From Escherichia coli (lineage in GTDB: Bacteria; Pseudomonadota; Gammaproteobacteria; Enterobacterales; Enterobacteriaceae): 64,000 nucleotides of DNA. Below, piece by piece: positions 6,001 through 12,000 of this stretch; the stretch's first letter is position 1; each line of letters begins with the position of its first letter. Position numbers: made by a program. The stretch lies in the NCBI RefSeq assembly GCF_022846255.1, contig NZ_AP025682.1. One strand, 5' to 3'.

Positions 6001-9000
6001 CACTAACAGCAATAGCTGCCAGCTTGCGATCGCCACGATCCTTCGGTATATAGAGATCCCCGACTAAGGTGATCCCGTACCGGTTCGGAAAGGTCACCTT
6101 ACGGTGATCAACTTTCGTGCTCTCAGCAAACGTTTTATCCCATTTCTCGACCTGCGAAACGGGCGCGTTCGGATTGGTTGTATCAGCGTAACTCATATTT
6201 GTGACTCCATTTAATGATACGCATAACAGCATGGCGGGTATCGCAGCTGTCAATTTTTGGGTGAAAGCAGTCATCAAAATTCCCCTCATAAAATGTGCCA
6301 GATACTGGTTTCAGACGGATAACACTGCTGTGCTTTGTTGCAACGTGCACATTATAGTTAGCATTAATAGTGCTAATTAGAGGGTAAAAAATGCTAAGAT
6401 TAATAACATATTGTTCTTAATCGTGATGCAGCAGCAGAGGAAGGATGATGGCGAAACGGGAAAACTATAACGATCTCTATCTGTTTATGAAGGTCGTGCG
6501 AGAAGGGAGTTTTACCGCCGCCGCGCAGAGGCTTGGCCTGGCGCAGTCAGGAATTAGCCGTGCAGTGCGCGAGCTGGAAGAGCGACTGGGCGTGCAGCTT
6601 CTAGTACGCACCACGCGCAAGTTATCGCTCACCCATGCCGGCGAGTTATTCTATCGAAACGTCGAATCTGGATTTGACGCCTTAGATATGGGGCTTGCCA
6701 CGCTGGCCCATTATCGCCATACACCATCGGGTACGGTCCGAATTAATGCGAGCCAGCATGCCATTGATAAAGTGCTTCTGCCGAAGCTGGCGGTGTTTAA
6801 ACAACGATACCCGGATATTCGGCTGGAGCTCATCAGCGAAAGCCGGTTTGTCGATATTATTACTGAGCGCTTCGATGCCGGTATACGTCTGGGCTCGGAA
6901 GTGGATAGCGGTATGGTTGCGGTGCGCATTTCGCCCGATATGGAGATGGCCGTTGTCGGCACACCCGAGCACTTTCGTCGCTACGGATTTCCGCAAACCC
7001 CCACCGATTTAGTGGGTCATCCCTGCATCGCTTACCAGTTCGGCGACGGCAGCCTGTATGCCTGGGAACTCAATCAGGACGGTAAAAAGATCACCCATCA
7101 GCCTCAGGGACAATGGGCCTTTGCTGACAGTTATATGGAAGCCAAAGCCGCGAGGCTAGGTCTGGGACTGGCTTATGTTCCGGAGGAATTGGTGTCTGAT
7201 GATATAGAACAGGGGGCGCTGATCAGAGTTTTGCAATGCTACAGCCAACGCCTGGCAGGTTCATATATCTATTATCCGCACAGAAATGTGTCACCCGCTC
7301 TACGAGCGGTTATCGATACATTGAGAATTTAAGGGATGAAGATGAGATGATTCGCAGGCCTGGGTAATAGTTGGAAAACAACGTCCGTTCCTGGCACAGA
7401 GCAGACCATCGGACTAAACTGAAGGTCCTCTCTGTGCGAGAAACGGAAGTTAGCAATTGTGATACAGACGTGGGGCATTACTCGCTTTACAGTGTGTTAA
7501 TCAATTGGAAACAGGTCAGAATTTATTGGGTGGAATGACACCTTTAAACTTCTTGCGCATCGCAAGGAATATCTCCACCAGACGGTAAGACAGTAGATTG
7601 CGCCACAAGTCCTCAGAATGCCCTTTGCTGGGTTAACCACACGTCGTAATCATCCTTCCAGTGCAGCGGATCAAGATCCGTAATGCTCATAGTCACGCGA
7701 TTTCAAATACAAGCCCAGTGGTGTTATCCGTGAGCTGGACAGTGCTTCCGGCAACATGACTGAGACAGACAAAAAATCAGTTAGTACAGCATTGACTCAG
7801 GTTGAGCAGGAGTTAAAACAAACTGGGCTGGAGCAGTAGAAGCCTGCAGTGAATTCCCTGAATCAGGCGATTAAGTTGGCTTAAGAGTCCGTGTATGCCA
7901 TGTGCCGCGAGATGTCGTGCTATACGTGAAAGTCAGCGATATATATCGTTTTGAAGATGATTTAGGTTACGGGAGTGTCTCTGGGTGATGTATTACTTCA
8001 TCGACATCGGCTACGCACGGGTTGCCGCGATGCAGCGGATGGAAGCTGTCTGGGAAAAGAAAGCTCCGCTTGCTAATATTAGTACATCCGATGAAAAATC
8101 GTGTGTGAAAGTTGCAGATTCGTAATATACTAATGAAGAATGGAGATGTATTTTATATAATAAAAACATCTAAGTAGAGCTTTTTATTTTAAATCCTTCA
8201 TTATTACTGGAGATTTTATGGGTTTTTATAATGACGCACTGAGTAAAATATATAGTGAAGATGATGATTTCCTAATTATAGGATTAACAGGGAGGACGGG
8301 GTCAGGCTGTTCAACAGTTTCTAATATACTGTCATCAGAATCAAGTGAGATAAAGCATTCTCTATTTAACGGTGATTACCCTAAGTCGAATGAAGAAAGA
8401 AAAGAGCGGGTTCTATTTAAATATTTTTCCGTGTCATGGGTTCCATTTATAAAGATACAAGCAAGTTCCATACTGACATTGTGTTTATCAAAGGACTTTG
8501 ATGGTAAGCTGAATAAATTTATTCGGGAAGTGACGGAGTTAGGTAATGACCAAAGAATCCTAGAGTCAACAGTTAATGATCTTGAATCTATACTAAAAGA
8601 AATTAAAGCTAAAGATGAAAGCTCTGATCATGATATAGATGATAAGATAAAATTCATAAATGAATATCTAATAAAAGCGAATACACAAATTAAATCCATA
8701 TTTAAGAACAAGGCTGACTATATAAAACTATATCAAGCTATAGGTAATAATTATAGATCTAGTGGGATGTACCATGACAGTTCATTTAGTGATGATTTCC
8801 ATGGTTTTTTTCTTCCTAAAAAAATAAATGATATAATTCAAAGATTAAGAACCTTAGCAAAAGAAAAGAACACAAAAACTGGAGAAAAGAAACCTATTTA
8901 TATAGTTATTGATGCTATAAGAAATCCGTTCGAAGCAACATACTTCCAAGATAGATACTCATCATTTTATTTAATGGCTGTTTCTACAGAAGAGCATTAC

Positions 9001-12000
9001 AGGCATCAAAGGCTTAGAGAACAAGGTTTAACTGATGCTGAGATAAAAGATATTGATGCAAAAGAATACCGTAAATCATCTTTGGATGAGAAGTCATCAT
9101 ATATATATCAGAATATACAGTCTTGTTTAGAAATATCAGACATCTATGTTGAGAATCCGGAAGAGGAAAATGTTGTTTGTCGGTACTCAGGATTGGCTAA
9201 TCAATTAATTAAATTCACTTCATTAATGAAGCGTCCCGGTATAATAACTCCATCAAATGTTGAACGTTGCATGCAGATAGCATATACAGCTAAGTTGAAC
9301 TCTGGTTGTATATCCAGGCAGGTAGGCGCTGCAGTATCTGATAGTTCATTTTCAATTAAGTCTATTGGTTGGAATGATGTACCAAGTGGTCAAGTTCCTT
9401 GCTCTTTAAGGGATAGGTTTGATTTGTCTGAGGGGATTGATGATATTGCTTACTCTGAATTCGAAAAGAACGAAAATAGTTTCATTCGAAAAATAGATAG
9501 CACTAAGATTATTTTTTTAGATGTTAAAAATAAAGGAATGAGAGCTCCATTTTGTTTTAAAACAGAATGGAATAATATCCTTGATGATAAATACAAAGAA
9601 GATCTACGGGTCGAGCATAAGTTAAATGATGATGAGTTTGCTATTATTGACAAAATAAAGTCTAACGCTAATCAAGTTTTTACAAGATCACTTCATGCTG
9701 AAGAGAATGCTTTCTTACAAATATCTAAGTATGGTGGCGTTGGTATACAGAATGGTTTTTTGTTCACAACAGCAAGCCCTTGTGAATTATGTTCTAAAAA
9801 AGCGTATCAATTAGGGATCAAACAAATATATTACATAGATCCATACCCTGGTATAGCAATGAGGAATATTTTAAACGCAGGGAGCAATAAACCATTGCTT
9901 AAGCTTTTCAATGGTGCAATAGGTAAGGCATTCCATAATTTTTACACGCCAAGAATGGCTTATAAAGATGAGCTTTCAGCAAGATCTAGGGGGTGAAAAT
10001 ATTGATACAGGTAAAGGCAACGAACCAGAAATGCTCGAGACTATTCTGGCTAAGTCTGCCGGGCGATAAGCACGAGTGCATATGCTGTTCCAAAAGTCTT
10101 CTATTCAATAAATTACGAAGTGCTAACTAACTGACCATGTACAATAAGAACAAATCGCCTTGAATTGCTCTTGATTGAATGGTGAAGAATTATGAGGGTG
10201 ATAGTCCTTACCACCCTCAATTAAAATTAAAGGTATTTACGTGAGAAATTTTTCTTAACCACACTACTAATAAAACTATTTAGTCCATGCCCATCCTGGG
10301 CTAGCGCTTTCATCTTAGAGACCGTTGAAGCACCCAGTTTTGTAGAATCGTAACGTATTTCCATCCATCTTTAAACTGTACTGTGATAACATCGGGAGTA
10401 ATCTCATAAAACACTATTCCCGAATTACCGCCTTAATTAGCATAAGTTGGCATTTTTAATTCTTATTAAATTATTGCAGCAAGTCGCTGCACTCTAGTCA
10501 TATGACCCCATGCTAAACCTAATTGTTGAGCTAAGTCATAATTTCGATTATTTGATGAACGTAAGTTATTTGACAGGCAGAATTAACCATACACAGTAAT
10601 ATCCGTTTCTGGCACATAGCAGTCCTATAGATAGTGGCATACAGTCATAGATGGTCGATTGGAGGAGGTGCAAATTCTCCCATACAAAAAATACGTAAAA
10701 TCAATAACAGCTGGAAATTATTTAATAATCAAATTATCGGAAGTTCACCAGCCAGCCGCAGTATTCTGCCACGACAAGTTGCTGCGGCTTTTTATGTTTA
10801 ACGGATAAACAGCCAGACCAGCAGACACGCCACCGCGGGCACCGCAAAATCCATCAGACTTGCCACATCCCATGCACGAGGATCAAAACCGCCCCACCAC
10901 GGCATGTTAATCCGCTTGCCATGCCCGAACATTTCAATCCAGCGATATTCTGCCTGGGTGTGTTCACGCGCAATGAAGAACGTACAACCGGCTATCGCCC
11001 CGTAAGCCCAGTTTCCGGTAAAAAGACCAATCAGTAGCTGCGCAGCCACAGCACAAAGTGCATGAAGGAAAGGTGTTATATCCATTACTCCTCCTTTATC
11101 AGATATCACTTCGGGAAGTTGATAACAACTTTAATTCTGACTCAAGTTCATCAACTCTTTCAGTCAGTTTCTGGATATGGTGAATCAGTGGAACAACCAG
11201 ACGTTCGTACATTACACCTTCGACAACAAGGCCATTGCTGGAAATAGCTTCAGGAGCATCATCTTCGTTAGCTGGTCGCCAGTGTACAAACTGAGGAGCA
11301 ATTTCTCCCACTTCCTCGGCAATCAATCCGTAGAATCCCCAGTCACTCCTGTCATTTTCGCATTGCGACCTGTACCACACAGGGCGCATCCTGAAAATGA
11401 GATCGGCGTGCTCTGAATCTATTGTCTCTACTGAATGTTTATAGCGAATAGACGATGTTGACCGCAGTACAGACGAAATTGCAGGGTCAGGATTAAGATA
11501 AAGATTTGCCGCCGCTGTAGTCGTGCCCAATTCCCATAAATAAAACGCTTCACGGCCAGTCAGCGGGTAAAAATCTCCACCATAACGACCGCTTTCCAGA
11601 TCGTTCACTTCCAGTTTGTTTTTCAGCTTATTATCAACTTCAGTTTTTGTGTATCTGGTGCTGATATCCTGCTTTGCACTGGTCATATCAGTCTGAAGCG
11701 TTGATACTTTTCCGTTAATTGAGGAAATATCTTCCTTAGTTTTACTGACATCTCCCTTTAGCGTGGTGATATCTCCTGGAATTACTGTCGATGTAGCCAT
11801 TTGTCTCCCTCACATCCAGCCACGAAGTTGATGCTCAACAACAACCGCATATTTATCGAATATTGACGATTTTTTTGCATCATTAATGATGCGCACGTTT
11901 ACAAAATATCCGTCTTCCTTAACACATACCGGTTCGCCATCTTCAGTCAGTTCTCCGGTTTCTTTGTACACGTTACCTATCACGTCAATAAGAATATTAT

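What the first reader, a model, noticed from the sequence alone, without database searches (positions are those of the whole stretch)
8218..9996. AT-rich single-gene island encoding a kinase-like / deaminase fusion: candidate nucleotide-depleting antiphage defence gene in the prophage b region
The 592-aa ORF has GC content far below the prophage and chromosome. Its C-terminal third carries the zinc-dependent cytidine/dCMP deaminase signature (HAEENA ... PCELC with a QVGAAV-type substrate loop). Its N-terminus has a P-loop-like segment GLTGRTGSGCST in which the canonical Walker A lysine position is a cysteine. This architecture matches what I recall of the defence families that deaminate dCTP/dCMP on infection (DCD / AvcD type). 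It sits in the lambda b-region equivalent, between tail fibres and att, where morons accumulate. The non-canonical P-loop and position suggest a divergent or undescribed variant.
Basis: partly seen in the sequence, partly recalled or inferred. Interest (0 to 1): 0.8.

Follow-up and report, generated by a model that had tools for sequence, protein, structure and literature searches.

The report
Prophage-borne anti-phage dCTP deaminase gene
An AT-rich gene carried at the end of an E. coli lambda-like prophage is a clear but unlabelled member of the already described family of anti-phage dCTP deaminases (DCD/AvcD), which starve infecting phages of a DNA building block, and its unusual cysteine P-loop is the family norm, not a new variant.

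Summary
A 592-aa ORF lies at 8218-9996(+), with 33% GC against 51% for the window. It carries HAEE/PCELC deaminase motifs and a GLTGRTGSGCST P-loop. It sits in the b region of a 49-kb lambdoid prophage inserted between torT and torS.

The defence interpretation is supported. The protein matches the PADLOC dCTPase model (E=5e-127). It is 38% identical over its full length (E=6e-123) to the E. coli AW1.7 dCTP deaminase tested by Tal et al. All four residues whose mutation abolished defence in that enzyme are conserved here. The AlphaFold model (pLDDT 92) shows an NMP-kinase-like N-domain and a dCMP-deaminase C-domain. dN/dS is about 0.08.

The claim of a divergent or undescribed variant is not supported. 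Cys at the Walker-A lysine position occurs in 232 of 239 homologues, and Tal et al. mutated it (C30A). The gene belongs to a rare E. coli subclade (5 of 5426 complete genomes). That subclade scores just under NCBIfam NF041025's cutoff (371 against 400 bits), so PGAP calls the gene "hypothetical protein".

The subclade has a roughly 25-aa insertion in the deaminase domain. Whether an AvcI-type RNA antitoxin lies upstream is unresolved.

Verdict: new member of a known kind, low interest.

The parts
8218..9996 (+). CDS of the 592-aa anti-phage dCTP deaminase homologue (DCD/AvcD family)
   Evidence: ORF; PADLOC dCTPase E=5e-127; NF041025 370.7 bits; 38% identity, E=6e-123 to the AW1.7 enzyme; dN/dS 0.08-0.09
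8218..9237 (+). N-terminal P-loop NMP-kinase-like domain (approximately residues 1-340)
   Evidence: AF2 model; Foldseek hits to adenylate-kinase-related protein 3lw7, dephospho-CoA kinases 8dv0 and 1vht, and dNMP kinase 1dek; profile hits to 3lw7, 3h0k and 2grj; weak Pfam AAA_18 and CoaE hits
8281..8316 (+). Walker-A-like loop GLTGRTGSGCST (residues 22-33), with Cys31 in place of the canonical Lys
   Evidence: Invariant; C in 232 of 239 homologues; equivalent to G29/C30 of AW1.7, whose mutation abolished defence
9238..9993 (+). C-terminal zinc-dependent dCMP-deaminase-fold domain (approximately residues 341-592). It includes invariant C364 and C395, which correspond to C370 and C401 of AW1.7, plus C446
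   Evidence: Pfam PF00383 at residues 347-539, E=3.5e-11; PDB sequence hits 1vq2 and 4p9c; Foldseek 1vq2, 4p9c, 2hvw and 2w4l with TM(target) 0.6-0.82; invariant columns
9694..9705 (+). HAEE catalytic motif (H493 zinc ligand, E495 proton shuttle)
   Evidence: Invariant in 102 sequences
9778..9792 (+). PCELC zinc-binding motif (C522, C525)
   Evidence: C522 is invariant and P521, E523 and C525 are nearly invariant in 102 sequences; PCELC in all six E. coli clades
9580..9657 (+). Subclade-specific insertion of about 25 aa in the deaminase domain (approximately residues 455-480), predicted helical with lower confidence
   Evidence: Present only in the window protein, P0003 and P0004 in alignment A1; pLDDT falls to 57-84 over residues 451-490
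8089..8217 (+). Leader and presumed promoter that travels with the gene in every context. It has GGAG 7 nt before the ATG and a TATAAT box about 60 nt upstream
   Evidence: Nucleotide homology with plasmid contig L004 starts at 8089; alignment A2; diverges more slowly than synonymous sites (0.169 against pS 0.42); no significant fold (z=-1.04)
7489..8088 (.). Upstream block that accompanies the gene in three contexts (window and SF-468, L015, L019) but not in L004. It looks like decayed gene remnants. It is the only candidate space for an AvcI-type RNA
   Evidence: frameshifting indels and a stop-codon difference in the small ORF; 8.1% divergence against pS 16%; fold z=-1.31 for 7840-8217; no Rfam hit
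7384..7447 (.). Strong hairpin at the left junction of the island
   Evidence: MFE -41.1 kcal/mol for the 101-nt stretch folded, z=-5.78; homology with SF-468 and with L019 starts at 7381 and 7369
10603..10622 (+). Right copy of the 20-nt direct repeat CCGTTYCTGGCACAKAGCAG. The left copy is at 7385-7404, inside the hairpin
   Evidence: 3 matches in the window against 0.04 expected. The homology with Qin-like prophages ends here, at 10619
10012..10619 (.). Decayed downstream segment, 92-93% identical to a segment of Qin-like prophages that lies next to an ATP-dependent nuclease gene. The small gene in it is frameshifted here
3302..3312 (.). att core repeat TTCACCTAAAG at the b-region end of the prophage. 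The partner copy is at 52380-52390
   Evidence: empty-site reconstruction 100% identical
3393..3709 (.). Lambda-like attP arm and sib/terminator region
   Evidence: 97.5% identical to lambda J02459 27327-27644
51233..52306 (+). Prophage tyrosine integrase at the opposite end, next to torS

Best explanation
The gene encodes a single-protein anti-phage dCTP deaminase of the DCD/AvcD family, carried as accessory cargo in the b region of a lambdoid prophage inserted at the torT-torS site of E. coli. By homology (inferred), the enzyme is made in the lysogen but kept inactive. When a superinfecting lytic phage shuts off host transcription, the enzyme becomes active. Its C-terminal zinc deaminase domain (H493/E495/C522/C525, plus a second Cys cluster C364/C395/C446) then converts dCTP, and probably dCMP, to deoxyuridine nucleotides. 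This empties the dC pool and stalls phage DNA replication. The N-terminal NMP-kinase-like domain, with its family-typical GxxxxGC[ST] loop, is required for activity, most probably as a nucleotide-binding or regulatory module rather than a classical ATPase. The following are shown here: the ORF, its composition, the domain architecture, conservation of the essential residues, purifying selection, and the location in a mobile element. The following are inferred: the enzymatic reaction, the trigger, and the phage-defence phenotype.
For: PADLOC dCTPase model E=5e-127. NCBIfam anti-phage dCTP deaminase model aligned end to end over positions 1-437, E=1e-110. Full-length BLASTP to the experimentally tested AW1.7 enzyme: 38% identity, E=6e-123. 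G30, C31, C364 and C395 correspond to AW1.7 G29, C30, C370 and C401, whose mutation abolished defence and dCTP depletion. HAEE and C522 are invariant and C525 is nearly invariant in 102 homologues. AF2 model pLDDT 92.2 and pTM 0.90, with dCMP-deaminase and NMP-kinase folds. dN/dS 0.083 and 0.087. More than 4500 homologues were found, some named 'anti-phage dCTP deaminase' by NCBI. Relatives sit next to an RM system on a plasmid (L004), beside P2-like integrases, in an integrase island at tRNA-Phe and in an ICE. Prophage b-region location is proven. Mechanism and trigger are taken from Tal et al. (10.1101/2021.04.26.441389) and Hsueh et al. (10.1101/2021.03.31.437871, PMC10511110).
Against: There is no functional data for this allele or its subclade. 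It is only 37-39% identical to any E. coli enzyme labelled as a dCTP deaminase and scores below NCBIfam's curated cutoff (370.7 against 400). No strong sigma-70 promoter was predicted upstream. No AvcI-like RNA could be demonstrated. Some close relatives lie in housekeeping-looking chromosomal contexts (L005, L010).
Confidence: 0.85

Rival explanations
1. It is the toxin of a two-part AvcID-type type III toxin-antitoxin module. An unannotated small RNA encoded just upstream on the same strand (within 7489-8217) binds and inhibits the deaminase, and rapid decay of that RNA after transcription shut-off releases the enzyme. This is a refinement of the best explanation, not an alternative to it.
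For: In V. cholerae, V. parahaemolyticus, P. mirabilis and ETEC the antitoxin RNA lies immediately 5' of avcD in the same orientation. It is 171-280 nt long and shows no sequence conservation between species. Here a 729-nt non-coding block upstream travels with the gene in three contexts. That block diverges at about half the synonymous rate. L015 has a 69-aa small ORF called on the same strand in this block, which is interrupted by a stop in the window.
Against: The 90%-identical plasmid allele (L004) shares only 128 nt upstream. The 71% relative has a 60-nt upstream gap. Neither the 152-nt stretch 8089-8240 (leader plus the first 23 nt of the CDS) nor the 378-nt upstream stretch folds better than shuffles (z=-1.0 and -1.3). 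There is no Rfam match. The block contains what look like decayed protein-coding fragments.
Confidence: 0.3
2. It is a nucleotide-metabolism enzyme serving the prophage's own replication (like T4 cd dCMP deaminase feeding dTTP synthesis) or the host's pyrimidine metabolism, not a defence gene.
For: The C-domain's nearest solved structures are phage and cellular dCMP deaminases. The gene is phage-borne. Some relatives sit among housekeeping genes.
Against: Housekeeping models score far below cutoff (ComEB TIGR02571 36.6 against 219 bits) and no RibD model hits at all. The obligatory fusion to the Cys-P-loop kinase-like domain defines the defence family. The gene is transcribed opposite to the neighbouring tail-fibre genes, from AT-rich foreign DNA in the dispensable b region. 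It is present in only 5 of 5426 E. coli genomes and in no sequenced phage genome of INPHARED, where the best match is 26% identical and partial. The same cassette is on a plasmid beside an RM system.
Confidence: 0.05
3. It is a decaying, non-functional remnant in a junk-rich b region.
For: It is flanked by decayed fragments (7489-8088 and 10012-10619). There is no strong promoter match.
Against: The 592-codon ORF is intact. All catalytic and essential residues are intact. dN/dS is 0.08-0.09, and the protein is identical to the SF-468 allele with only synonymous differences.
Confidence: 0.03

Closest known systems
E. coli AW1.7 anti-phage dCTP deaminase (WP_045268677; Tal et al. 2021/2022, 'DCD'; DefenseFinder/PADLOC dCTPdeaminase)
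   Same: Same two-domain architecture over the full length (38% identity, E=6e-123). Same GRTGSGC[ST] loop, HAEE and PCELC motifs. The four experimentally essential residues are conserved. It is a single-gene system on a mobile element.
   Different: Different subclade: 37-39% identity to all five E. coli clades labelled as dCTP deaminases, against 50-56% to Pseudomonas, Shewanella and Neisseria proteins. It has a roughly 25-aa insertion in the deaminase domain and a shorter helical linker in the N-domain. It scores below the NF041025 cutoff. It is carried in a lambdoid prophage b region rather than a tRNA-Phe integrase island.
AvcD/AvcI (DcdV/DifV) type III toxin-antitoxin of Vibrio cholerae VSP-1 and the ETEC H10407, P. 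mirabilis and V. parahaemolyticus homologues (Hsueh et al.)
   Same: Same protein family (P-loop kinase-like plus DCD domains; both domains required). Same expected chemistry: dCTP/dCMP to dUTP/dUMP, activated by transcription shut-off.
   Different: A cognate upstream sRNA antitoxin could not be shown here.
Phage and cellular dCMP deaminases (T4 Cd 1VQ2, cyanophage S-TIM5 4P9C, human DCTD 2W4L, PBCV-1 bi-DCD 7FH4)
   Same: Fold and zinc-site residues of the C-terminal domain.
   Different: Those are stand-alone biosynthetic enzymes whose solved chains are 126-193 residues long. They have no N-terminal kinase-like domain, and sequence identity is only 16-20%.

Membership tests
Anti-phage dCTP deaminase (DCD/AvcD; PADLOC dCTPase PDLC02373) | Full-length match to the family profile | tested here: met
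   PADLOC E=5.3e-127, 423 bits, residues 8-585
Anti-phage dCTP deaminase (DCD/AvcD) | C-terminal zinc-dependent CMP/dCMP deaminase domain with HAE...PCxxC | tested here: met
   PF00383 E=3.5e-11; H493, A494, E495 and C522 invariant, C525 nearly invariant; dCMP-deaminase fold
Anti-phage dCTP deaminase (DCD/AvcD) | N-terminal P-loop kinase-like domain with a non-canonical Walker A (GxxxxGC[ST]) and hhhhD Walker B | tested here: met
   GRTGSGCS at residues 25-32 and VID232; C in 232 of 239 homologues; NMP-kinase-like fold hits
Anti-phage dCTP deaminase (DCD/AvcD) | Residues shown essential for defence in the AW1.7 enzyme (G29, C30, C370, C401) | tested here: met
   G30, C31, C364 and C395 align and are conserved: C364 and C395 invariant, G30 and C31 nearly invariant in 102 sequences
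Anti-phage dCTP deaminase (DCD/AvcD) | Sporadic distribution on mobile elements or defence islands | tested here: met
   5 of 5426 E. coli genomes; prophage b region; the 90%-identical allele lies beside an RM system on a Rep3 plasmid contig
Anti-phage dCTP deaminase (DCD/AvcD) | dCTP to dUTP conversion on infection, and reduced phage plaquing | not testable with these tools
   Requires cloning, plaque assays and LC-MS
NCBIfam NF041025 'anti-phage dCTP deaminase' equivalog (strict annotation rule) | Whole-protein score of at least the curated cutoff, 400 bits | tested here: not met
   370.7 bits. The six relatives scored from this subclade and the Pseudomonas/Neisseria group give 366-392 bits for five of them and 401 for P0090, while three other E. 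coli clades score 416-449. This is a threshold effect and explains PGAP's 'hypothetical protein' label
AvcID type III toxin-antitoxin system | Cis-encoded sRNA antitoxin immediately 5' of the deaminase gene on the same strand | tested here: inconclusive
   A co-travelling 729-nt upstream block exists. But only 128 nt is shared with L004, there is no significant fold and no Rfam family matches
Housekeeping dCMP deaminase / ComEB / RibD | Match to equivalog models above cutoff; stand-alone deaminase or RibD reductase fusion | tested here: not met
   TIGR02571 ComEB 36.6 against 219 bits; no RibD model at E<=0.01; different architecture

The most novel reading that the evidence does not exclude
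This rare subclade may be regulated differently from the characterised AvcID and AW1.7 enzymes. The subclade is defined by the 25-aa insertion, sub-threshold NCBIfam scores, and nearest relatives at 59-90% identity (P0002-P0004), beyond which come Pseudomonas and Neisseria proteins at about 50%. Either the enzyme is autoinhibited through the subclade-specific helical insertion in the deaminase domain and needs no RNA antitoxin (only 60-128 nt of upstream sequence is conserved or available in L004 and L005), or the co-travelling block 7489-8088 encodes a new, unrelated AvcI-type RNA. The hairpin and 20-nt direct repeats at 7385 and 10603 may mark a recombination site that lets lambdoid prophages swap defence cargo.
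Probability: 0.15. Interest if true: 0.4.

Novelty: new member of a known kind. Interest (0 to 1): 0.2.

Why it matters
This adds a prophage-borne, currently unlabelled subclade to a defence family whose mechanism is already described. Three practical points follow. First, the NCBIfam NF041025 cutoff of 400 bits misses a whole branch that scores 366-392 bits, so PGAP-based surveys under-count dCTP deaminases, while PADLOC finds them. Second, the lysogen probably gains protection against superinfecting lytic phages, which is relevant to phage-therapy host range for the ExPEC-type strains that carry it. Third, no structure of any full-length family member is in the PDB, so the role of the Cys-P-loop kinase-like domain remains open for the whole family, not for this gene in particular.

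Tried and rejected
1. The Lys-to-Cys P-loop as a sign of a new variant. Rejected: it is the family consensus and has already been mutated experimentally.

2. Housekeeping dCMP deaminase, ComEB or RibD. Rejected on NCBIfam scores and architecture.

3. A structured leader or AvcI-like RNA. Rfam at E<=1 gave only spurious miRNA and snoRNA hits on the junction hairpin. 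Folding z-scores were -1.0 and -1.3. There are too few diverged upstream sequences for a covariation test.

4. Promoter and terminator scan. No convincing sigma-70 site upstream and no terminator downstream on the + strand; counts were at or below shuffle expectation.

5. A solved structure of the family. None was found by sequence, profile or Foldseek.

6. More copies of the cassette. An exact 31-mer scan gave 0 hits in 100,044 GTDB species representatives and 1 gut metagenome contig. IMG/VR gave one UViG with the identical protein. INPHARED phages have no close homologue.

7. My first guess that the prophage ends at about 7381, where homology with SF-468 starts. Rejected: the true att end is at 3302-3312. 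Position 7381 is an internal mosaic junction.

8. Literature searches for AvcD together with 'Walker A', 'cryo-EM' or 'kinase domain' found no structural or mechanistic paper on the N-domain in the held library.

Full report
**Observation.** The ORF is real: 8218..9996 on the + strand, ATG start, 592 aa.

- Its GC content is 0.329, against 0.509 for the window, 0.521 for the rest of the prophage and about 0.514 for the chromosomal flanks. The AT-rich stretch runs from about 8100 to about 10800.
- Every quoted motif is present: GLTGRTGSGCST (residues 22-33, Cys31 at the Walker-A lysine position), QVGAAV (368-373), HAEENA (493-498) and PCELC (521-525).
- The gene is under strong purifying selection. 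dN/dS is 0.083 against a 97%-identical allele (L015) and 0.087 against a 90%-identical plasmid allele (L004). The protein is identical to the E. coli SF-468 allele, with only synonymous differences.

**What it is.**

- The protein hits the PADLOC dCTPase model at E=5.3e-127 over residues 8-585.
- It aligns end to end (positions 1-437 of 437) with NCBIfam NF041025 "anti-phage dCTP deaminase" at E=1e-110 and 370.7 bits. That is under the curated cutoff of 400 bits.
- Pfam finds only dCMP_cyt_deam_1 (residues 347-539, E=3.5e-11), plus weak P-loop kinase hits at the N-terminus.
- The window protein is 38% identical over its full length (E=6e-123) to WP_045268677 of E. coli AW1.7. That is the enzyme Tal et al. 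showed to deplete dCTP and protect against phages (bioRxiv 10.1101/2021.04.26.441389).
- In that paper, G29A and C30A in the kinase motif, and C370A and C401A in the deaminase domain, abolished defence and dCTP depletion. These positions align with G30, C31, C364 and C395 here. C364 and C395 are invariant and G30 and C31 nearly invariant in the 102-sequence alignment.
- An AlphaFold2 model built on that 102-sequence alignment is confident (pLDDT 92.2, pTM 0.90).
- The C-terminal half superposes on dCMP deaminases (T4 1VQ2, S-TIM5 4P9C, S. mutans 2HVW, human 2W4L; E from 5e-7 to 6e-5, TM on target 0.6-0.82).
- The N-terminal half resembles adenylate-kinase-related protein 3LW7, dephospho-CoA kinases and T4 dNMP kinase (profile search).
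- No full-length relative has a solved structure in the PDB copy.

**The P-loop.** It is not.

- Of 239 homologues in which the motif was found, 232 have Cys at that position. GLTGRTGSGC[ST] accounts for 160 of them.
- C31 is nearly invariant in the 102-sequence alignment.
- All five other E. coli clades carry GRTGSGC[ST].
- The Cys was one of the residues mutated in the founding paper.

**How divergent it is.**

- The protein is 37-39% identical to each of the five other E. coli dCTP deaminase clades sampled: AW1.7, LF4-1, LR-29-1, ETEC1747 and LF82.
- It is 50-56% identical to Pseudomonas, Shewanella and Neisseria proteins and 59-97% identical to a handful of metagenomic proteins.
- The family is large. 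More than 4500 proteins match at E<=1e-5 (only the 8000 candidates sharing most words were scored), and 441 clusters at 50% identity match at E<=1e-30.
- Of six relatives scored against NF041025, five give 366-392 bits and one (Neisseria P0090) 401. Three other E. coli clades score 416-449.
- This explains why PGAP labels the identical gene "hypothetical protein" in all five complete E. coli genomes that carry it (5 of 5426), while 38 other genomes carry genes labelled "anti-phage dCTP deaminase" or, in at least one case, "deoxycytidylate deaminase".
- The only structural peculiarity of the subclade is an insertion of about 25 aa at residues 455-480. It lies between the conserved CFK and NQVxTRSLHAEEN blocks and is shared only with P0003 and P0004. 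It is modelled as helical at lower confidence.

**Context.**

- The window is E. coli. Joining 3101-3312 to 52391-52600 in silico reconstitutes a 422-nt torT-torS junction. It is found at 100% identity, and 5215 of 5426 genomes carry it as one place covering at least 80% of the query.
- The integrated element therefore spans about 3313-52390 (49 kb). It has an 11-bp core repeat TTCACCTAAAG, a lambda-like P arm/sib segment at 3393-3709 (97.5% identical to lambda 27327-27644) and a tyrosine integrase at 51233-52306 next to torS.
- The b region also holds a NepI-like MFS transporter, an alpha/beta hydrolase and a LysR regulator at 3767-7332. None of these hits PADLOC.
- It further holds a strong hairpin at 7384-7447 (MFE -41 kcal/mol for the 101-nt stretch folded, z=-5.8), decayed gene fragments at 7489-8088, the deaminase gene, and a decayed segment at 10012-10619.
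- That last segment is 92-93% identical to a segment of Qin-like prophages lying beside an ATP-dependent nuclease gene.

**The mobile unit.** The unit that moves is small.

- A Rep3 plasmid contig carrying an RM system shares only 8089-9988 (context).
- Another contig (L015) shares 7489-10011.
- SF-468 and a gut metagenome contig share sequence from 7381 and 7369 onward.

**Mechanism.** The best-supported account is the published family mechanism. The enzyme is held inactive in the lysogen, is activated when an infecting phage shuts off host transcription, and deaminates dCTP/dCMP so that phage DNA synthesis starves. None of this is shown for this allele.

In the AvcID systems the inhibitor is a labile sRNA encoded immediately 5' of the gene on the same strand, with no sequence conservation between species. 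I looked for an equivalent.

- No Rfam family matches.
- The 152-nt stretch 8089-8240, which holds the conserved 129-nt leader, and the 378 nt upstream of the ATG fold no better than shuffles (z=-1.0 and -1.3).
- The L004 allele shares only 128 nt upstream, and the 71% relative has a 60-nt upstream gap.
- On the other side, the 7489-8088 block travels with the gene in three contexts and diverges at roughly half the synonymous rate.

The question stays open.

**Verdict.** The defence-gene reading is supported. The "undescribed variant" reading is not. This is a new member, from a rare and under-annotated subclade, of a known kind of system. Interest is low.

Noticed in passing
window 7385-7404, 7427-7446(-), 10603-10622: A 20-nt motif CCGTTYCTGGCACAKAGCAG flanks the deaminase island as direct repeats 3.2 kb apart (3 matches against 0.04 expected). 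The left copy and its inverted partner form a strong hairpin at 7384-7447 (z=-5.8). Homology breaks with SF-468, with L019 and with Qin-like prophages all fall at these motifs. A similar motif sits at the same junction in L002 (7588-7604). It may be a module-junction or recombination signal for cargo exchange.
   Followed up: partly
window 10012-10619; L002 7001-7604; L003 7001-7604: The DNA just downstream of the deaminase is 92-93% identical to a segment present in 77 other E. coli genomes. In the two examined (Qin-like prophages) it lies between hokD and the replication genes, next to an 'ATP-dependent nuclease' or other variable cargo. The 75-aa gene inside it is frameshifted in the window (ORFs 10227-10364 and 10310-10414, - strand).
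   Followed up: partly
window 3767-7332: The same prophage b region carries non-defence cargo: a NepI-like MFS efflux transporter (3767-4960, -), an alpha/beta hydrolase (5138-6289, -) and a YafC-like LysR regulator (6445-7332, +). In the related gut-metagenome prophage L019, only about 1.4 kb separates the att arm and the deaminase island instead of 3.7 kb, so this cargo is variable.
   Followed up: partly
window 3302-3312 and 52380-52390; 3393-3709: The 49-kb lambdoid prophage is integrated in the torT-torS intergenic region with an 11-bp core duplication TTCACCTAAAG. Its attP arm/sib region is 97.5% identical to phage lambda's, although the core and insertion site differ (from memory, HK022-like site; not tested).
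   Followed up: yes
NCBIfam NF041025 against this subclade: The curated 400-bit cutoff excludes a whole branch of bona fide full-length homologues (366-392 bits), so RefSeq labels them 'hypothetical protein'. PADLOC detects them at E=5e-127.
   Followed up: yes
window 36514-36669 (-): Two tRNA genes (tRNA-Thr UGU and tRNA-Asn GUU) sit inside the prophage, between the lysis and Q regions.
   Followed up: no
window 12091-14472 (-): The 793-aa tail protein contains a long alanine/serine-rich region with internally duplicated blocks (KTSETNAKSSQTAAKTSETNAKASETAAKSSQDAAAESESAAAGSASAAA occurs twice). It also aligns out of register with SF-468, which suggests repeat-mediated variation.
   Followed up: no
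L015 390-599 against window 7760-7969: A 69-aa ORF called upstream of the 97%-identical allele, on the same strand, is cut short in the window by a CAG-to-TAG change. The block also differs by 1-, 2-, 3- and 4-nt indels, so it is unlikely to be protein-coding. It mirrors the 'small hypothetical ORF' that marks avcI loci.
   Followed up: partly
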